Positions 1 to 61,388 of a stretch of 62,022 bases of DNA are shown here, piece by piece. The stretch spans positions 1 to 62,022 of the forward strand of contig JAXEXP010000174.1 of the NCBI GenBank assembly GCA_034113365.1. The letters are read 5' to 3'. The position numbers and the translations under genes are program-made. How positions within the stretch are numbered: the stretch's first letter is position 1; each line of letters opens with the position of its first letter. Source of the DNA: Candidatus Spyradocola sp. (GTDB lineage Bacteria; Bacillota; Clostridia; Christensenellales; UBA1750). The notes beneath the pieces are model-generated. The model was given only the letters and a program-made list of their open reading frames with translations, was not told where the DNA came from and made no database searches.

Positions 1-138
1 CTTAATCCATAGGCAGATGGAAAATCGCTTCCGATACAGAAAAATTCGTGTGCGGCAAGGCCGTGCGCGAATTTTTCTGCAATTCGAAAAAGATGAGTAT
101 TCATCTTTTTCGAGCCTGTCGACTTTGTCGACAGGCTG
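1..138. mobile_element. MITE-like element, copy 1 (partial, truncated by the window start)
   Basis: Near-identical to 15365-15496 and to the reverse complement of 9436-9567. Ends in TTTGTCGACAGGCTG and directly abuts a terminator hairpin. Confidence 0.8.
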
Positions 139-7599: not shown

Positions 7600-7779
7600 G
7601 AAGCAACCTCCATACGTGCTGAGCTTGGATGGGCCGACGCATCCATCATAACACAATCTGCGGAATATGCAACCGTTGACAGCCCAGCTTTGTACTATGT
7701 TAAAATTTTAGCATTGCAATTTGCCGGTTTTCAGTGGAAAATAGAACCATAAGCAATCCAATGAAAGGAGATGGAACGC

Positions 7780-8583
7780 ATGGCACAAAATGCGATCATG
7801 CGGCTGACCATCCGGTCCGAGGCCCTCAAGACCGTGACGGACGTAAACGTGCTCTATCCCACGCGCAAGACCACCGAGCGCAAGGGCGGGATGATGCACA
7901 ACACCTGCGTCCGCCATGAGCGCTCGCTCAAGGTGCTCTACCTGATCCACGGAGGCGGAGACGACTACTCTGCGTGGATCAACAACACGCGCTTGGCGCT
8001 GTACGCCGAGAAGCATCCCGAGCTGCTCATCGTGATGCCCACGGTGCGCGACTTCCAGTCCTTCCGCACCGACATGGACTACTACGAGTACGTCTCCCGC
8101 GAGCTGCCCGAGTACATCGGCAGGCTGTTCAACATCTCGCACCGGCGCGAGGACACCTACATCGCGGGGCTTTCCATGGGCGGCTATCTGTCCTACCGCA
8201 TCGCGATGCTCAACCCGGAGCGCTACGGCAGGGTGGGCAGCTTCTCCAGCCCGCTGGACATCGTGCAGGACATGATCGAGCGGCACATCGGCTCGGCGGA
8301 GCACGCCGCGCCCGAGGCGCTCATCGGCGACCCCTTCCGCGAGATCCGCACCATCGTGGACAACAACCTCAAGCACCACATCGCAATGCCCGCCTCCTTC
8401 CAGGCCTGCGGCACCGAGGACATGACCTACGCCATCAACTGCGCGATGCGCGCCTTCTTTGAGGGCCGGCGCATGGATCACACCTACATGGAGGGCCCCG
8501 GCGTACACAACTGGTACTTCTGGGATGAGTACATCGACAAATTCCTGGACTGGCTGCCGCTGGATGACAAGGAGGGCGTGTGA
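7780..8583 (+). CDS. Putative esterase (tributyrin esterase / S-formylglutathione hydrolase-like)
   Basis: VLYLIHG, IAGLSMGGY, ACGTED, GVHNWYFWD; AAAGGAG RBS. Confidence 0.88.
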   Translation: MAQNAIMRLTIRSEALKTVTDVNVLYPTRKTTERKGGMMHNTCVRHERSLKVLYLIHGGGDDYSAWINNTRLALYAEKHPELLIVMPTVRDFQSFRTDMDYYEYVSRELPEYIGRLFNISHRREDTYIAGLSMGGYLSYRIAMLNPERYGRVGSFSSPLDIVQDMIERHIGSAEHAAPEALIGDPFREIRTIVDNNLKHHIAMPASFQACGTEDMTYAINCAMRAFFEGRRMDHTYMEGPGVHNWYFWDEYIDKFLDWLPLDDKEGV

Positions 8584-8584
8584 T

Positions 8585-9352
8585 ATGGCAAGAATACAGC
8601 TCAGCTATCCGGGCTACGGCCTGGCTTCCATCGACATGATCGCGCCGCAGTACGGCGACAGCCCCCGGGACGCGCAGATCAGCCGCGAGGACTACTACGC
8701 GGGCAAGCTGCCCGTGCTGTGGCTGCTGCACGGCGGCATGGGCTGCTCGAGCGACTGGCTCCGCTTTACCGAGGTGGAGCGCTTCGCGGCGGAAAAGCGG
8801 CTGTTCGTGGTGTCCATCTCGGGCGAAAACGGCGCGTATGTGGACATGGCGCGCGGCGCGCACTGGGAATCCATACTGACGGAGTACGTCTGGGATATGA
8901 TCCATGACATGTTCCCGCTGGCCTCGGAAAGGCCGGAGGACAACAGCATCGCGGGGCTGTCGATGGGCGGCTACGGAGCGCTGCGCAACGGCCTTAAGCA
9001 CCCCGAGAAGTACGGGCGCATCGGCGCGTTCTCGGCGGGGGTGCGCATCGTGGAGCGCGTGGGCGAGGACAGCGCGTTCGGCCGCGACCTGAAGGACGTG
9101 TTCGGCCAGGAGTGCGTGGGCACGCCCAACGACCTGTTCTGGGCGGCGCAGGCGCGGAAGGATGCGGGCAGGCCCTTCCCGCCCATCTACCTCTCCTGCG
9201 GCACGAAGGACAAGCTCTACAAGGACAACGCCGACCTGCGCGACCATCTGCAGGCGCTGGGCGCGGACGTGACCTGGGACGAGAGCGAGCACGGCCACGA
9301 ATGGGCCTTCTGGAACCGCCAGATCGAGAAATTCATCGACTGGCTGCCGTAA
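8585..9352 (+). CDS. Putative esterase (paralogue of the upstream gene)
   Basis: PVLWLLHG, IAGLSMGGY, SCGTKD, HGHEWAFW; AAGGAGG RBS. Confidence 0.88.
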   Translation: MARIQLSYPGYGLASIDMIAPQYGDSPRDAQISREDYYAGKLPVLWLLHGGMGCSSDWLRFTEVERFAAEKRLFVVSISGENGAYVDMARGAHWESILTEYVWDMIHDMFPLASERPEDNSIAGLSMGGYGALRNGLKHPEKYGRIGAFSAGVRIVERVGEDSAFGRDLKDVFGQECVGTPNDLFWAAQARKDAGRPFPPIYLSCGTKDKLYKDNADLRDHLQALGADVTWDESEHGHEWAFWNRQIEKFIDWLP

Positions 9353-9402
9353 CGGACCGTATTTTTCTCCAAAGCCATTGACGCATACTGATGTATGCAG
9401 TA

Positions 9403-9435
9403 AAGTGGAGTGAAGCAATTGGCTTCATTCCACTT
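9403..9435. repeat. Left direct repeat (33-bp terminator hairpin; candidate target-site duplication)
   Basis: AAGTGGAGTGAAGCAATTGGCTTCATTCCACTT recurs at 9731-9763 with 2 loop mismatches. Confidence 0.85.
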
Positions 9436-9730
9436 CAGCCTGTCGACAAAGTCGACAGGCTCGAAAAAGATGAAACCTCATCTTTTTCGAATTGCAGAAA
9501 AATTCGCGCACGGCCTTGCCGCACACGATTTTTCTGTATCGGAAGCGATTTTCCATCTGCCTATGGGTAAAGAACGGTGGAAACAGAGACTTCGTCCAGC
9601 TTATTCTTTCCTAACGTACAGAAAATCGCTCCTCGGCGGGGTACACGCCCCCGCCTGCGGATTGAAGATGAAGGGGCTGCGGCCCCTTCATGCATCCTCG
9701 GGGAGCACATGCCTGTTTTTTGACAGACTG
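9436..9730. mobile_element. MITE-like element, copy 2 (295 bp, inverted relative to copies 1 and 3)
   Basis: Imperfect terminal inverted repeats CAGCCTGTCGACAAA ... TTTTTTGACAGACTG, no credible ORF, internal hairpins, flanked by 33-bp direct repeats. Confidence 0.85.
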
Positions 9731-9763
9731 AAGTGGAGTGAAGCAATCAGCTTCATTCCACTT
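9731..9763. repeat. Right direct repeat (terminator hairpin followed by T-run)
   Basis: AAGTGGAGTGAAGCAATCAGCTTCATTCCACTT followed by TTTT. Confidence 0.85.
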
Positions 9764-9910
9764 TTTTATATTGATATTCAGGGAAAACAGGACCCAATCG
9801 TCATGGAACATAATGTGGAAGTATGTCTGTTTGCTTTTGGTATGGCAGTTGTGGTAGCATAGAGCGAAGCAGCTGTTTCAGAGAGATGTGTGCTGAGGAG
9901 GAGTTGGCTT

Positions 9911-11341
9911 ATGGAACAGAAAAAGAAGTTCCGATGGGGGGCGTTCATCCGGGCGGTGGCGGTGATCGCGGTGCCGGTGGCGCTGCAGAACCTGCTGACC
10001 ACCACGGGCACCATGGTGGACACCATGATGATCGCGCCGCTGGGCGAGACGACGGTGGGCGCGGTGGGGCTGTGCGCGCAGTTTGCGTCGCTGATGTTTT
10101 CCAGCTACTGGGGATTTGTGGGCGGCGGCATGCTGTTTTTCGCGCAGTATTGGGGCGCAAAGGACGACGACGGCATCGACCGCAGCTATGGCATTACGCT
10201 GACGTGCATGATGTTTGTGGCGGCGGTGTTCACGGCGCTTGCGCTGCTGGCGCCCGAGTGGGTGATGGGCGTGTACACCGACAAGCAGGCCATTGGGCTG
10301 ATCGGCGTGAAGTACCTGCGCGTGGTGGGCTTTGCCTATCCGCTGCAGATCCTCTCCATGGCGATGAGCGCGCTGCTGCGCTCCACCGAACGGGTCAGGA
10401 TCCCGTTCTACGCGGCGATCGCGTCGGTGGCGACGAACATCGCGCTCAACTGGGCGTTCATCTACGGCAAGCTGGGGCTGCCCGCGATGGGCGTGCAGGG
10501 CGCGGCGCTGGCCACGGTGTGCGCCGCCGCGGTCAACGCCGGAGTGATCCTGCTGCTGGCGCGGGCGCAGGGGTACCCGTATCTGTTCCACTTCCGCAGG
10601 CATTTTAAGTGGAACCGCGCCATTGTGGGCGAGTATTTCCGCAAGTGCTTCCCCATCATCTGCAACGAGGTGCTCATCGGCGTGGGCAACATGGTCATCA
10701 ACATGGTGCTGGGGCGTCAGGCGGAGGAGGCCATCGCGGCCATTGCGGTGTTCCGCACGCTGGAGGGCTTTGTGATCGGCTTCTTTGCAGGCTGCTCCAA
10801 CGCGGCGTCGGTGCTGGTGGGCAAGAGCGTGGGCGCGGGCGAGCTGGACGACGCCTACGAGCGCGCCAAACGGCTGGTCCCGCTGTGCGGCGGGTGCATC
10901 CTGGTGGTCATCGGGCTGCTGATCGCGGTGCACAAGCCGCTGCTGACCGCGATGAGCCTGTCGGGCGAGTCCTACCGGCTGGGCGTGGGGCTGCTGTGCG
11001 TCTACGGCGTGGCGGGTGTGATCCGCATGTGCAACTGGACGATGAACGACACCTACCGCTCCGCAGGCGACGCCACGATGGGCACGGTGCTGGAGATCAC
11101 GTTCATGTACCTGATGGTGCTGCCGTGCGTGACGGTCAGCGGGCTGGTGCTGCACGCGCCGTTCCTGGTGATCTTTGCCTGCTGCTTTGTGGACGAGCCG
11201 GTGCGGCTCATCCTGATGCAGCGGCACATGTACTCGGGCAGATGGGTCAAGCCCGTCACGCCCGCGGGCAAGGCGGCGCTGCCCGCCTTCCGGGACAAGC
11301 ACGGCCGGAGGAGGAAGCGCGCTGCGGCCTGCGCGGATTGA
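9911..11341 (+). CDS. MATE family efflux transporter
   Basis: P..LQN......VDTMMIA.LG...VGAVG, AQYWGA, G..GAALAT, GKSVGAG; GAGGAGG RBS. Confidence 0.92.
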   Translation: MEQKKKFRWGAFIRAVAVIAVPVALQNLLTTTGTMVDTMMIAPLGETTVGAVGLCAQFASLMFSSYWGFVGGGMLFFAQYWGAKDDDGIDRSYGITLTCMMFVAAVFTALALLAPEWVMGVYTDKQAIGLIGVKYLRVVGFAYPLQILSMAMSALLRSTERVRIPFYAAIASVATNIALNWAFIYGKLGLPAMGVQGAALATVCAAAVNAGVILLLARAQGYPYLFHFRRHFKWNRAIVGEYFRKCFPIICNEVLIGVGNMVINMVLGRQAEEAIAAIAVFRTLEGFVIGFFAGCSNAASVLVGKSVGAGELDDAYERAKRLVPLCGGCILVVIGLLIAVHKPLLTAMSLSGESYRLGVGLLCVYGVAGVIRMCNWTMNDTYRSAGDATMGTVLEITFMYLMVLPCVTVSGLVLHAPFLVIFACCFVDEPVRLILMQRHMYSGRWVKPVTPAGKAALPAFRDKHGRRRKRAAACAD

Positions 11342-15233: not shown

Positions 15234-15265
15234 AACCGTGTACGGCAAATGGGCTGTACACGGTT
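15234..15265. repeat. Left direct repeat (32-bp terminator hairpin; candidate target-site duplication)
   Basis: AACCGTGTACGGCAAATGGGCTGTACACGGTT recurs at 15497-15528 with one mismatch. Confidence 0.85.
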
Positions 15266-15496
15266 CAGCCTGCCCAAAAATGGCAGAGCCCCCTCCGGGG
15301 AGTGATTTTCTGTAAGTTAGTAGGATAATAGATGGATGAACTCTGAATTCCATCCGTTTTCGAACCATAGGCCGATGGAAAATCGCTTCCGATACAGAAA
15401 AATTCGTGTGCGGCAAAGCCGTGCGCGAATTTTTCTGCAATTCGAAAAAGATGAGAATTCATCTTTTTCGAGCCTGTCGACTTTGTCGACAGGCAG
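15266..15496. mobile_element. MITE-like element, copy 3 (231 bp)
   Basis: Ends CAGCCTGCCCAAAAA ... TTTGTCGACAGGCAG; homologous to copies 1 and 2; flanked by 32-bp direct repeats. Confidence 0.85.
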
Positions 15497-15528
15497 AGCC
15501 GTGTACGGCAAATGGGCTGTACACGGTT
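15497..15528. repeat. Right direct repeat (terminator hairpin with T-run)
   Basis: AGCCGTGTACGGCAAATGGGCTGTACACGGTT followed by TTT. Confidence 0.85.
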
Positions 15529-22253: not shown

Positions 22254-22274
22254 TTCGGCCGTGGAGTCTTCCCT

Positions 22275-22385
22275 TCAGTCGCAGTTCTTGCCGCTGTTCT
22301 GGTTCTTGTTCTGATTCTGGTTGTTCTGGTTGGAGTTCTGGTTCTTATTCTGGTTCTGGTTTTTGTTCTGATTCTTGTTCTGCAT
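22275..22385 (-). CDS. 36-aa Asn/Gln-rich peptide MQNKNQNKNQNQNKNQNSNQNNQNQNKNQNSGKNCD (putative spore protein)
   Basis: GAGGTG RBS; synonymous codon variation (AAC/AAT, AAG/AAA) within the repeat; sigmaG-type promoter upstream. Confidence 0.65.
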   Translation of the reverse strand: MQNKNQNKNQNQNKNQNSNQNNQNQNKNQNSGKNCD

Positions 22386-22404
22386 GCTTTCTCACCTCGG
22401 CACT

Positions 22405-57170: not shown

Positions 57171-59261
57171 ATGGCCGTACTGGACGTGACGGGCAACCGC
57201 CTCTACTGGCAGCAGGACACGGAAAAGATACTCGTCGAGCCGTGGGGCAGGGACTCCCTGCGCGTGCGCATCACGCGCAATGGAGAGTTTGACGGCAAGG
57301 ACTGGGCGCTGGACGAGCCGCACGAGGAGACGCAGGCGCACGCGGAGATCTTCGAGACGGCGCCGCCCAACTTTGCGCAGGACGCGGCGCGGCTGGGGCA
57401 GGGCGAGTACCAGTTCAACGAAAAGCCCGAGAAAAAGCCCAACGCGATGCGCATCACCAACGGCAACATCACCGCGGAGATCGACCGGCACGGGTACATC
57501 CGCTTCCTCAACGGCCGCGGCGAGGAGCTGCTGCGCGAGTACGTGCGCGACCGGTCGGATCTTTCGGAGTTCTGCGTGCCACTGTCGCGCAAGGCGCGGC
57601 TGCTCACGCCCATCCCCGGCTGCTCGGACTGGACGGCGGTGATGAGCTTTGAGGCGCGTCAGGGCGAGCGATTCTACGGGCTGGGGCAGTATCAGGAGGA
57701 CTATCTGAACCTCAAGGGCTGCCAGCTGGAGCTTGCGCAGCGCAATTCGCAGGCCAGCGTGCCCTTCCTGCTGTCCTCGCTGGGGTACGGGTTCCTGTGG
57801 AACAACCCGGCGGTGGGACAGGTGACGCTGGGCGAGAACGTGACCGAGTGGACGGCGGAGCGCACGCGGCAGATCGACTACTGGATCACCGCGGCAGACA
57901 CGCCTGCGCAGATCCTGGAGAACTACACCGCCGTGACGGGGCGCGTGCCCATGATGCGGCGCGACCTGATGGGCTTTTGGCAGTGCAAGCTGCGCTACCA
58001 GACGCAGGACGAGGTGCTGCGCGTGGTGCGCGAGCACAAAAAGCGCGGCCTGCCGCTGGACGTGATCGTGATCGACTTCTTCCACTGGACGGCGCAGGGC
58101 GACTGGCAGTTCGATCCGCGCGACTTCCCCGACCCCGACGCGATGATCCGCGAGCTCAACGAGCTGGGCGTCAATCTGATGGTGTCGGTGTGGCCGACGG
58201 TGGATCAGCGCACCGACAACTACAAAAAGATGAGCGAGCGCGGGTATCTGATGCACATGGACCGCGGCCTGCCCATCCACGGCACCTGGATGGGGCCGTG
58301 CACCTATTATGACGCCATCAACCCCGGCGCGCAGAAGTACGTCTGGGAGCAGGTCAAGCAGCACTACTACGACAAGGGCGTCAAGCTCTTCTGGCTGGAC
58401 GAGGCCGAGCCGGAGATCGACGCGTACGACGCGGACAACTACCGCTACTACGACGGCCCCGCGCTGCTGTGCGCCAACGAGTATCCCCGTTGCTACATCA
58501 AGGGCTTCTACGACGGCATGACCGCGCAGGGCGACGAGGGCGTCTGCCACCTGATCCGCTGCGCCTGGGCGGGCTCGCAGAAGTACGGCGCGCTGCTGTG
58601 GTCGGGCGACGTGGAGTCCACGTTTACCGCGATGCGCAAGCAGCTGTCGGCGGGTCTGAACGCGGGCATGGCGGGCATCGCGTGGTGGACGTGCGACATC
58701 GGCGGGTTCCTCGGCGGATTCACCGCGCACGAGGACTTCCGCGAGCTGCTGGTGCGCTGGTTCCAGTGGGGCGCGTTCCTGCCTGTGATGCGCCTGCACG
58801 GCGACCGCCTGCCCTACACCGAGCCGCCGGTCAAATTCTACGGCCAGGTGGAGCGGTTCGGCACGGGCGCGGGCAACGAGGTCTGGTCGTTCGGCGAGGA
58901 AAACTACGAGATTCTCAAGAAATACATACTCATCCGCGAAAGCCTCAAGCCCTACATCGAGACCGTGATGCGTCAGGCGCACGAGCACGGCACGCCCGTG
59001 ATGCGCGCGCTGTTCTTCCAGTACCCGACCGATCCCGAGGCGGCCAACTACGAGGACGAGTACCTGTTCGGTCCCGATCTGCTGGTCGCGCCGGTGTTCG
59101 AGGCGGGAGCGACGAAGCGCAGCGTGTACCTGCCCGCGGGCGACGACTGGCGCGAGGTGCACACGGGCGCGATCCACGCGGGCGGACAGACTGTCGTGGC
59201 GGACGCGCCCATCGACGTGATCCCGCTGTTCGTGCGCGTGGGCGCAGACCTGCCGCTGTGA
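57171..59261 (+). CDS. Glycoside hydrolase family 31 (alpha-xylosidase-like)
   Basis: GFWQCKLRY, IDFFHW, FWLDEAEP, WSGD, DIGGF, MRLHG. Confidence 0.92.
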   Translation: MAVLDVTGNRLYWQQDTEKILVEPWGRDSLRVRITRNGEFDGKDWALDEPHEETQAHAEIFETAPPNFAQDAARLGQGEYQFNEKPEKKPNAMRITNGNITAEIDRHGYIRFLNGRGEELLREYVRDRSDLSEFCVPLSRKARLLTPIPGCSDWTAVMSFEARQGERFYGLGQYQEDYLNLKGCQLELAQRNSQASVPFLLSSLGYGFLWNNPAVGQVTLGENVTEWTAERTRQIDYWITAADTPAQILENYTAVTGRVPMMRRDLMGFWQCKLRYQTQDEVLRVVREHKKRGLPLDVIVIDFFHWTAQGDWQFDPRDFPDPDAMIRELNELGVNLMVSVWPTVDQRTDNYKKMSERGYLMHMDRGLPIHGTWMGPCTYYDAINPGAQKYVWEQVKQHYYDKGVKLFWLDEAEPEIDAYDADNYRYYDGPALLCANEYPRCYIKGFYDGMTAQGDEGVCHLIRCAWAGSQKYGALLWSGDVESTFTAMRKQLSAGLNAGMAGIAWWTCDIGGFLGGFTAHEDFRELLVRWFQWGAFLPVMRLHGDRLPYTEPPVKFYGQVERFGTGAGNEVWSFGEENYEILKKYILIRESLKPYIETVMRQAHEHGTPVMRALFFQYPTDPEAANYEDEYLFGPDLLVAPVFEAGATKRSVYLPAGDDWREVHTGAIHAGGQTVVADAPIDVIPLFVRVGADLPL

Positions 59262-59279
59262 GGAAGGAGTGTAGCAAAT

Positions 59280-61388
59280 ATGGCCATTTTCCGGCTTGAA
59301 AACAATCAGCTCTACTGGCAGCGGGGCGAGGAAAAGCTGCTGATCCAGCCGTGGGGCAACAACGGCCTGCGCGTGCGCGTCACCCGCGCGGCGCAGCTGG
59401 AGCTTAGCGAAAACTGGGCGCTGCTGCCTGCAGGCGAGCACACCGCGCAGATGGCGATGGTGAAGACCGCGCCCAAAAACCACAAGCAGATGGCTGCCGC
59501 GGGCGGCCCGGGCGAGGACGCGCCCATCGTCCCGGAGGAGAACGCCGCATACATCCGCAACGGAAAGGTCGCGGCGTTCATCGACCGGCACGGCTATCTG
59601 TTCTTCTACAACGAAAAGGGCGAGGAGCTGACGCGCGAGTACGTCCGCAACCGCTCCGACCTGTCGGAGTACTCCGTGCCGCTGGCGATGCAGGGGCGCT
59701 GGCTGCACCCGGGCGTTGGCCGCGACGACTACCGCTGCGCGATGAGCTTTGAGGCCTACGAGGACGAGAAGATCTACGGCATGGGGCAGTATCAGGAGGA
59801 CAGCCTCAACTTAAAGGGTATGAAGTTGGAGCTGGTGCAGCGCAATTCGCAGATCAGCTGCCCGTTCATGGTGTCCTCGCGCGGGTACGGCCTGCTGTGG
59901 AACAACCCGGCGGTGGGGCAGGTGACCTTCGCGCGCAACGTGACCAAGTGGGAGGCGCGCTCCACCCGGCAGATCGACTTCTGGATCACCGCGGGCGGCA
60001 CGCCGGACGAGATCGAGCGCAACTACGCCTCGGCGACGGGCACGGTGCCCATGATGCGCGACGACCTGATGGGCTTCTGGCAGTGCAAGCTGCGCTACCG
60101 CACGCAGGAGGAGCTGCTGAGCGTGGTGCGCGAGCACAAGAGACGCGGCCTGCCGATGGACGCCATCGTGGTGGACTTCTTCCACTGGACCAAGCAGGGC
60201 GACTGGAAGTTCGACCCGGTGGACTGGCCCGATCCCGAGGGCATGGTGGACGAGCTGAAAAAATACGGCGTGAACCTCGTGGTCTCGGTCTGGCCGACGG
60301 TGGACGTGCGCAGCGAGAACTTCCGCGAGCTGGCGGAGAACGACTACCTCATCCGCAACGACCGCGGCATCCGCCTGACCAGCCGCTTCATGGGCGACGT
60401 GACGCTGTGGGACGCGATGAACCCCGGCGCGCGCGAGTTCATCTGGCGCGTCTGCAAGAAGAACTACTACGACAAGGGCATCAAGCTGTTCTGGCTGGAC
60501 AGCGCCGAGCCCATCTACAACAACGACCACATCGACAACCTGCGCTACTACACCGGCCCCGCGCTGCAGGTGAGCAATATGTATCCCATGAACTTTGCCC
60601 GCGCCTTCTACGAAGGCCTTGCAGCCGAGGGCGAACAGGACATCATGTGCCTGATCCGCTGCGGCTGGGCGGGCAGCCAGCGCTACGGCGCGCTGGTGTG
60701 GTCGGGCGACATCCAGAGCAACTTCCGCTCCATGCGCCAGCAGATCACCGCGGGCCTCAACGCCGGCATGGCGGGTCTGCCCTGGTGGACGACGGATATC
60801 GGCGGCTTCCTGTCGGGCTTCCCGGCGCACGACGACTTCCGCGAGGTGCTGGTGCGCTGGTTCGAGTGGGGCTGCTTCCAGCCCGTGATGCGCCTGCACG
60901 GCGACCGCCTGCCCTATCGCAACCCCGAGCCCCTCTACCGCGACGGCGTGGAGCAGTTCGGCTCGGGCGCGGACAACGAGGTCTGGTCGTTCGGCGAGGA
61001 CAACTACGAAATCCTCAAAAAATACCTCCTCCTGCGCGAGTCCCTCAAGCCCTACATCAAGACCCTGATGCGCCAGGCGCACGAGCACGGCACGCCCGTC
61101 ATGCGCCCGCTGTTCTACCACTACCCAGACGACCCCACCGCCTGGGACGTCGACGAAACCTACCTCTTCGGCCGCGACCTCCTCGTCGCCCCCGTCTACA
61201 CCGCCGGCGCGACCACCCGCCGCACCTATCTCCCCGCGGGCGACCGCTGGCGCGAGGTCTCCACCGGCGCCACCTGCGACGGCGGCCAGTGGGTCACCGC
61301 CCACGCCCCGCTGGACGTTATCCCCCTCTTCGTCCGCGACGGCGCGGAAGAACTTGAAAACTATGTTTTTGGCCGTTATTGTGTATAA
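59280..61388 (+). CDS. Glycoside hydrolase family 31 (tandem paralogue)
   Basis: GFWQCKLRY, VDFFHW, FWLDSAEP, WSGD, DIGGF, MRLHG. Confidence 0.92.
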   Translation: MAIFRLENNQLYWQRGEEKLLIQPWGNNGLRVRVTRAAQLELSENWALLPAGEHTAQMAMVKTAPKNHKQMAAAGGPGEDAPIVPEENAAYIRNGKVAAFIDRHGYLFFYNEKGEELTREYVRNRSDLSEYSVPLAMQGRWLHPGVGRDDYRCAMSFEAYEDEKIYGMGQYQEDSLNLKGMKLELVQRNSQISCPFMVSSRGYGLLWNNPAVGQVTFARNVTKWEARSTRQIDFWITAGGTPDEIERNYASATGTVPMMRDDLMGFWQCKLRYRTQEELLSVVREHKRRGLPMDAIVVDFFHWTKQGDWKFDPVDWPDPEGMVDELKKYGVNLVVSVWPTVDVRSENFRELAENDYLIRNDRGIRLTSRFMGDVTLWDAMNPGAREFIWRVCKKNYYDKGIKLFWLDSAEPIYNNDHIDNLRYYTGPALQVSNMYPMNFARAFYEGLAAEGEQDIMCLIRCGWAGSQRYGALVWSGDIQSNFRSMRQQITAGLNAGMAGLPWWTTDIGGFLSGFPAHDDFREVLVRWFEWGCFQPVMRLHGDRLPYRNPEPLYRDGVEQFGSGADNEVWSFGEDNYEILKKYLLLRESLKPYIKTLMRQAHEHGTPVMRPLFYHYPDDPTAWDVDETYLFGRDLLVAPVYTAGATTRRTYLPAGDRWREVSTGATCDGGQWVTAHAPLDVIPLFVRDGAEELENYVFGRYCV

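What the first reader, a model, noticed from the sequence alone, without database searches (positions are those of the whole stretch)
9403..9763. MITE that appears to target intrinsic terminators and duplicate the entire hairpin (33-bp TSD)
Seen: a 295-bp non-coding element with imperfect TIRs (CAGCCTGTCGACAAA / TTTTTTGACAGACTG) is flanked by two direct copies of a 33-bp hairpin (14-bp stem), which is the natural terminator of the esterase operon. The copy at 15266-15496 has the same arrangement with a completely different 32-bp hairpin, and the copy at 1-138 abuts a third, unrelated hairpin. Established: some DDE IS families, such as IS1182 and IS1634, make long variable-length target duplications. 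Inference: targeting depends on structure rather than sequence (staggered cuts at the base of a cruciform). That gives a safe-harbour insertion that keeps termination intact and insulates the element on both sides.
Basis: partly seen in the sequence, partly recalled or inferred. Interest (0 to 1): 0.75.

Follow-up and report, generated by a model that had tools for sequence, protein, structure and literature searches.

The report
Hairpin-duplicating IS1182-type miniature transposon
This 295-base gene-less repeat, present in dozens of copies, sits at the foot of the hairpins that follow genes and carries a full copy of that hairpin on each side; it is likely moved by an IS1182 transposase from the same genome, and both hairpin targeting and whole-hairpin duplication are already reported for other insertion sequences, so it is a clean new example rather than a new principle.

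Summary
Observation confirmed. The element spans 9436-9730 with a 33-bp duplication (2 loop mismatches); the copies at 15266-15496 and 1-138 are as described. Genome-wide, 86 of 94 element ends abut a hairpin foot within 0-2 nt (random sites 156 of 1500). 37 flank pairs duplicate whole hairpins of 19-42 bp in 31 sequence families. A sister species has one hairpin and no element at 9 of 16 co-located sites, including the thiW site. The genome holds fragments of an IS1182-type element with similar ends and the same duplication; full-length relatives pass the IS1182 cut-off. One correction: the U-tract is not duplicated. Only the far copy looks like a terminator (38 of 40 versus 6 of 40), so host transcripts likely run through the element, and 'insulated on both sides' is not supported. 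At this site the insertion also separates a conserved promoter-like sequence from the MATE gene. Precedent: IS1630 (1999, title only), ISCbo5, ISBma2, and the cruciform model drawn for IS1272. This scan noted the same kind of element earlier (19 findings, at least 18 genomes). Verdict: real, new member of a known kind.

The parts
9436..9730 (+). MITE, 295 bp, no transposase gene; interior built of five or more hairpins
   Evidence: no Rfam match at gathering level; the 150-aa ORF across it has no Pfam hit
9436..9450 (+). left terminal inverted repeat; 17 of its first 18 bases match left ends of IS1182 elements in other Clostridia
9716..9730 (+). right terminal inverted repeat; resembles both ends of the resident IS1182 fragments and contains an outward TTGACA hexamer
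9403..9435 (+). upstream copy of the 33-bp target hairpin; not followed by a T-tract
9731..9763 (+). downstream copy of the target hairpin, followed by TTTTATAT; the only copy scored as terminator-like
9378..9406 (+). promoter-like TTGACG-17-TAAAGT overlapping the foot of the upstream hairpin; a matching motif lies just upstream of the orthologous MATE gene in G004 and G002
8576..9352 (+). esterase gene (PF00756) ending 50 nt before the target hairpin; start codon taken by eye
9890..11341 (+). MATE efflux transporter gene downstream of the insertion (TIGR00797)
15266..15496 (-). second MITE copy, 231 bp, internally deleted, between convergent thiW and a minus-strand gene
15234..15265 (.). 32-bp target hairpin, thiW-side copy; single in G004
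15497..15528 (.). 32-bp target hairpin, second copy, 1 mismatch
1..138 (-). third MITE copy, left part only, cut by the contig end
139..179 (.). 41-bp target hairpin of the third copy; mate on contig C83; one related hairpin and no element at this place in G004

Best explanation
The element is a non-autonomous miniature transposon with IS1182-type ends that sits at hairpin feet with the whole hairpin duplicated, and it is likely moved in trans by an IS1182-family DDE transposase that likely recognises an extruded DNA hairpin. Shown: the ends, the copy number, junctions within 0-2 nt of hairpin feet, duplication lengths that follow hairpin length, single hairpins at empty orthologous sites, and the same ends and duplications in IS1182 elements. 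[quoted passage not shown] Supercoiling at gene ends would favour such cruciforms, which would explain why terminators are the usual target and REP-like palindromes are hit too. Because the A/T tracts lie outside the cuts, each tract stays with only one copy. A host transcript is therefore predicted to read through the first hairpin and the element and to stop at the far copy.
For: 86 of 94 ends at a hairpin foot, offsets 0/1/2 nt in 50/26/10 cases. 37 pairs of 19-42 bp, each spanning its predicted hairpin to within 3 nt, 15 of 37 perfect. G004 empty sites with one homologous hairpin at 9 of 16 co-located pairs, judged by eye. Resident IS fragments: four right ends after a DDE_Tnp_1_6 C-terminus and two left ends before a transposase N-terminus; all six abut hairpins, and the C158 and C157 flanks are the same 28-bp hairpin. 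Closest full-length relatives score 396-400 bits on NF033551, cut-off 270. Among related IS from genomes, 22 of 44 evaluable have 23-36-bp whole-hairpin duplications, 6 of 6 in the one record with megabase contigs. G004 has a related element at the hairpin orthologous to C38/C57, in the opposite orientation. T-tract counts 6 of 40 versus 38 of 40.
Against: No intact transposase is assembled in this genome, and the resident IS ends match the MITE only over the first 10-15 bases, so the actual helper is not identified. 6 of 19 evaluable full copies within one contig have unlike hairpins on the two sides; so do most IS relatives without a matching duplication (22 of 44, 23 of 28 metagenome loci). 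I read these as assembly chimeras or recombination between copies: for 5 of the 6 at least one flank matches a flank at another contig end, and G004 synteny backs such pairings. This was not proven for the relatives. 24 of the 37 pairs were joined across contigs by sequence match. No empty allele was seen at site 1 in 4 of 4 runs, and G004 lacks the esterase genes, so this site has no empty comparator. Cruciform extrusion was not tested.
Confidence: 0.85

Rival explanations
1. Insertion is largely random and only copies that land next to terminators survive selection.
For: All 29 non-REP pairs lie within 200 nt of a gene end pointing at them (crude gene calls); insertions are old enough for selection to have acted.
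Against: Selection would not place junctions 0-2 nt from hairpin feet or make duplication length follow hairpin length from 19 to 42 bp; the signal falls to background 10 nt away.
Confidence: 0.03
2. The element brings its own flanking hairpin, for example on a circular intermediate, and recombines into or creates the target.
For: Some flanks belong to repeated palindromes (6 + 2 of 37); unlike flanks occur on some copies.
Against: 31 unrelated hairpin families among 37 pairs; the same hairpin is present once in empty G004 sites.
Confidence: 0.02
3. Targeting goes through the transcription machinery (paused or terminating RNA polymerase, or a single-strand hairpin in the bubble or at the fork) rather than a double-strand cruciform; the duplication outcome is the same.
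For: 29 of 37 targets are hairpins at gene ends; a weak base bias at the foot (A in 70 of 94).
Against: No orientation bias to incoming transcription (gene on the left only 10, right only 8, both 11). REP-like palindromes mostly without T-tracts are hit at no lower a rate (6 pairs against 83 such sites; 29 pairs against 439 terminator-like strand sites; rough counts).
Confidence: 0.1

Closest known systems
IS1182 family, hairpin-targeting members: ISCbo5 and ISBma2 (PMC3098183, PMC2877748; passages read)
   Same: ISCbo5 is listed as IS1182 and, with one exception, sits in hairpins at gene ends thought to be transcription stops. ISBma2, which PMC3098183 equates with it, makes 18-26-bp variable duplications with a GC-rich centre between A and T runs.
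   Different: Those are autonomous. The passages seen do not state outright that the whole hairpin is duplicated. Here duplications reach 42 bp and the element is a gene-less passenger with a hairpin-rich core.
IS1272 / TnSha1 of staphylococci, IS1182 family (PMC5678879 abstract and part 1 of 2 of the Discussion; PMC4923244 passages)
   Same: Targets hairpins, many of them terminators, with no sequence consensus; repeated insertion into one terminator in both orientations. PMC5678879 Fig 13b draws the cruciform route to whole stem-loop duplication.
   Different: IS1272 deletes or replaces the hairpin and leaves no duplication; this element duplicates it.
IS1630 of Mycoplasma fermentans, IS30 family (Calcutt 1999; only its title and secondary passages seen)
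   Same: [quoted passage not shown]
   Different: Different transposase family; autonomous; shorter duplications.
MITEPye1 of Paracoccus yeei (PMC11578231 passages)
   Same: Gene-less, intergenic, folds into stem-loops, ends resemble IS1182-family IRs.
   Different: 159 bp, 4-bp duplications, 1-3 copies per chromosome.
Siguier, Gourbeyre, Chandler reviews of the IS1182 family (not held; wording recalled, cited second-hand in PMC5678879 and PMC4923244)
   Same: Cited as saying that some IS1182 members target palindromes. From recall, they also say some duplicate the entire stem-loop.
   Different: Per PMC5678879 no detailed data were given; the recalled sentence was not checked.

Membership tests
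MITE (non-autonomous IS derivative) | short, no transposase gene | tested here: met
   295 bp; six-frame translation; overlapping 150-aa ORF has no Pfam hit
MITE (non-autonomous IS derivative) | terminal inverted repeats and target duplications | tested here: met
   12 of 15 TIR match; 37 duplications
MITE (non-autonomous IS derivative) | many dispersed copies with empty orthologous sites | tested here: met
   86 BLAST loci, 46 left and 49 right ends; empty sites in G004
MITE (non-autonomous IS derivative) | mobilised in trans by a cognate transposase | not testable with these tools
   inferred from shared ends and shared target behaviour only
IS1182 family (helper) | transposase over the NF033551 cut-off with DUF772, DDE_Tnp_1 and DDE_Tnp_1_6, in full-length relatives | tested here: met
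   L018 394.6, L305 395.7, L304 399.5 bits against 270; Pfam domains for L018 and L305
IS1182 family (helper) | intact IS1182 transposase in this genome | tested here: inconclusive
   only contig-end fragments: C-terminal 67 aa over the PF13751 cut-off but under the NF033551 cut-off, N-terminal 25 aa; the middle is unassembled
IS1182 family (helper) | terminal IRs shared with the element | tested here: met
   left end 17 of 18 identical to L033, L053, L055, L089; resident ends match over 10-15 bases
IS1182 family (helper) | ISfinder subgroup assignment | not testable with these tools
   ISfinder is not available here
IS1272-type stem-loop replacement | target hairpin deleted, no duplication | tested here: not met
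   hairpin present in full on both sides
IS1634 family | IS1634 transposase as helper | tested here: not met
   NF033559 24.1 bits against cut-off 100 for the related transposase L018
IS30 family (IS1630) | IS30 transposase as helper | tested here: not met
   no IS30 model among the NCBIfam hits of the end-sharing transposases; the genome was not searched for IS30 itself; it works like IS1630 but is not a member
Curated structured RNA family | Rfam match at gathering score | tested here: not met
   three weak hits far below gathering in window 9300-9900

The most novel reading that the evidence does not exclude
The interior is an older structured RNA repeat that IS1182 ends captured as cargo. 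End-less copies of the core sit right after stop codons in the sense direction, some at the same locus in two species, and the core shows compensatory changes. Because hairpin-foot insertion leaves the U-tract on the far side, every jump would add this folded module to the 3' end of a host mRNA: a transposon that delivers an RNA structure to transcript ends.
Probability: 0.2. Interest if true: 0.55.

Novelty: new member of a known kind. Interest (0 to 1): 0.3.

Why it matters
It gives an unusually large natural target set (37 duplications in one genome, plus empty sites in a sister species) for a targeting mode that the papers read here describe only by title, as a model drawing or second-hand. 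That makes the cruciform model easy to test with one transposase and designed hairpins. It also corrects the 'insulated safe harbour' picture: only the far hairpin keeps its U-tract, so about 300 nt of structured sequence is predicted to join the host transcript. As a discovery it is modest, since the family habit is known and this scan has noted it in at least 18 other genomes.

Tried and rejected
Siguier 2014 and 2015 reviews and Calcutt 1999 are not held; their content is cited second-hand or from recall. The NF033551 hit on C94 reads by eye as an IS5-like ORF of 323 aa (label recalled, not scanned) and was set aside as the helper. A first end-finding pattern let in false right ends (43 of 66 with hairpins); ends were then anchored to the element, and three missed ends were added by hand. 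Exact-pattern scans for the resident IS left end in metagenome contigs and for the MITE left end in viral contigs found nothing. The esterase next to site 1 has no close orthologue in 7 genus genomes (best 42%), so no empty comparator exists for that site. (site 2, four runs): contigs of more diverged strains stop aligning at 15265 in 3 runs and the part unique to this copy has almost no depth, but no joint was listed, so it is not counted as an empty allele. The idea that the far hairpin copy is kept stronger than the near one was not supported (far stronger 11, near stronger 8, equal 21 of 40). Part of G004 was not read (2.31 Mb with overlaps of about 2.5 Mb; genome 85% complete), so 21 of 37 pairs without a joint hit are unresolved, not negative. 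PMC9208149 and bioRxiv 2024.06.02.596822 passages added only that IS1182 is over-represented between convergent genes. Eight paper searches showed no listing of an IS1182 MITE that duplicates whole terminators; only top listings were seen and subscription journals are missing. No supplements were read; those of PMC2877748 (target table S3) may bear on whether ISBma2 duplicates whole hairpins.

Full report
Observation. The element runs 9436-9730 with imperfect terminal repeats (12 of 15), between two copies of a 33-bp hairpin at 9403-9435 and 9731-9763 that differ at two loop bases. The copy at 15266-15496 is inverted, internally deleted and flanked by a different 32-bp hairpin; the copy at 1-138 abuts a 41-bp hairpin. 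Most of the best-matching runs are pig gut metagenomes and related transposases come mostly from Clostridia records, so a gut Clostridia member is likely (inference).

Family and targets. BLAST gives 86 loci, with 46 left and 49 right ends, three of them added by hand. Of 94 ends with flank, 86 have a hairpin whose foot lies 0, 1 or 2 nt from the junction (50, 26, 10 cases). Controls gave 156 of 1500 random positions, 50 of 940 shuffles and 8 of 93 at a 10-nt offset. I paired 37 of the 46 left ends with a right end by flank match, 13 within a contig and 24 across contig ends; 9 left ends had no unique partner and were dropped. The duplications are 19-42 bp, each spanning its predicted hairpin to within 3 nt, and 15 of 37 are perfect. 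They fall into 31 sequence families; the only shared letter is a bias to A at the first base, 70 of 94. 29 are hairpins at gene ends and 8 are REP-like palindromes. Mismatches between copies are commoner in loops (20 of 157 positions) than in stems (23 of 835). That fits selection on pairing or loop hypermutation; the pairs are not independent and one pair gives 8 differences.

Empty sites. G004, a genome of the same genus with about 85% DNA identity, was read over 2.31 Mb with overlaps. Both flanks co-locate there for 16 of 37 pairs. By eye, 9 show one homologous hairpin and no element (C103, C153, thiW site, C34, C86, C108/C9, C120/C125, C150/C55, C81/C51). One carries a related element (C67) and 6 are uninformative because the REP-like target is absent or the region is rearranged. 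The thiW site is shown directly, and the window-start hairpin is single in G004. At the C38/C57 hairpin G004 has a related element in the opposite orientation with its own whole-hairpin duplication, which suggests repeated targeting, though inversion is possible. For the site in question there is no empty comparator: G004 lacks the two esterase genes, and in 4 of 4 runs from four studies contigs run from both flanks into the element with no skipping joint.

Helper. The genome holds four contig-end copies of a transposase C-terminus followed by an end like the MITE's and a hairpin, and two left ends before a transposase start. The C158 left flank and C157 right flank are the same 28-bp hairpin. 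The closest full-length relatives (L304, L305; 80-82% over the C-terminal 66 aa) and the G040 element pass NF033551 at 395-400 bits against 270. Of 80 related loci from genomes I examined the 66 with near-complete matches; 44 had both ends and enough flank. 22 of 44 have a 23-36-bp duplication equal to the hairpin (21 perfect), 42 of 44 have a hairpin at the right foot, and 6 of 6 copies in the record with megabase contigs are perfect. Against this, only 5 of 28 evaluable metagenome loci have matching duplications, although 21 of 28 have hairpins at both ends. In this genome 6 of 19 evaluable full copies have unlike flanks, and for 5 of them a flank matches another contig end. Assembly through repeats or recombination between copies explains this best, but it is not proven for the relatives.

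Mechanism. DDE transposases join the two 3' ends of the element to staggered positions, and repair duplicates what lies between (established; stated in PMC5678879). A stagger that varies from 19 to 42 bp yet tracks hairpin feet is what joining at the two 5' feet of a cruciform predicts (Fig 13b of that paper). This step is inferred. Random insertion plus selection, and an element that carries its own hairpin, are excluded by the junction precision and the empty sites. A transcription-coupled single-strand route remains possible, but there is no orientation bias (gene on the left only 10, right only 8, both 11) and REP-like palindromes are hit as well.

Consequence for transcription. With my own crude gene calls, 40 genes point into the 29 non-REP sites. 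At least 5 T follow the near copy in 6 of 40 cases and the far copy in 38 of 40. The terminator scan likewise scores only the downstream copy here, plus one internal hairpin on the minus strand. So termination is predicted to be kept but moved to the far side, with the element co-transcribed; insulation on both sides is not supported. At this site a TTGACG-17-TAAAGT motif at 9378-9406 overlaps the first hairpin, and a matching motif lies about 45 nt before the MATE start in G004 and G002. If it is the MATE promoter, the insertion has put a full terminator between it and the gene (inference, untested).

The core. The interior folds into several hairpins. 6 of 83 predicted pairs in 15 copies and 18 of 55 pairs in 28 copies from four genomes show changes on both sides; paired columns vary less than unpaired ones (0.045 versus 0.19). 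No shuffle or tree control was run. End-less copies without duplications follow stop codons in the sense direction at C17, C45, C94, C109, C110, C133 and C134 (by eye). The C45 copy aligns with its G004 orthologue over 231 of 233 nt at 91%, against 94% for the coding flank. These may be decayed old insertions or an older repeat captured by IS ends.

What is known. IS1182 members target hairpins: ISCbo5 sits in gene-end hairpins (PMC3098183 passages), ISBma2 makes 18-26-bp variable duplications (PMC2877748 passages), and IS1272 targets terminators but deletes them (PMC4923244 passages; PMC5678879 abstract and first part of the Discussion). [quoted passage not shown] IS1182-type MITEs are described (PMC11578231 passages). 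Earlier notes of this scan list 19 such findings in at least 18 genomes (unchecked AI notes, not counted as evidence). I file this as a new member of a known kind: MITE criteria are met, the helper family is IS1182 by full-length relatives, and trans-mobilisation is inferred. Interest 0.3.

Noticed in passing
G000 contig C1 around 10660-10930; a similar right end on C101 near 16670: A second non-coding element of about 270 bp whose left end matches the resident IS1182 left end better than this MITE does, with a 24-bp REP-like duplication and REP-like repeats as cargo.
   Followed up: partly
window 9378-9406: Promoter-like motif conserved upstream of the MATE gene in G004 and G002 overlaps the target hairpin; the insertion may cut MATE off from it.
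   Followed up: partly
G000 C45:12543-12775 and G004 L239; also C17, C94:29939, C109, C110, C133, C134: End-less copies of the MITE core directly after stop codons in the sense direction, some shared with G004. The C45 copy lies between genes that look like argG and argH (names recalled, not scanned).
   Followed up: partly
G004 locus orthologous to the C68 right flank: A remnant of about 27 bp made of little more than two IS1182-type ends sits at the foot of the same hairpin that G000's element uses.
   Followed up: no
G000 C158 and C35 left ends; C36 right end: The resident IS has its own hairpin with a T-run just inside the left end and a strong hairpin inside the right end, so it may shield itself from read-through.
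   Followed up: no
G000 C121 (2149 bp) between C39:23311 and C34: A 2-kb segment flanked by MITE copies at two different hairpins; in G004 the two outer flanks are adjacent.
   Followed up: no
G000 C151:1-369: Tandem MITE copies separated by one 34-bp hairpin, suggesting re-insertion at an already duplicated target.
   Followed up: no
window 7771-9352: Two tandem esterase genes present here are missing at the syntenic place in G004, where the regulator gene lies next to MATE.
   Followed up: partly
window 57194-61247: Tandem gene duplication with 2100-bp period and 73-78% identity.
   Followed up: no
window 22272-22391: Low-complexity repeat with 12-18-bp spacing, likely coding.
   Followed up: no
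genome-wide: 83 matches to a REP-like palindrome with core TTCCCC-N-GGGGAA, part of a longer repeat; 6 of the 37 paired insertions sit in it.
   Followed up: no
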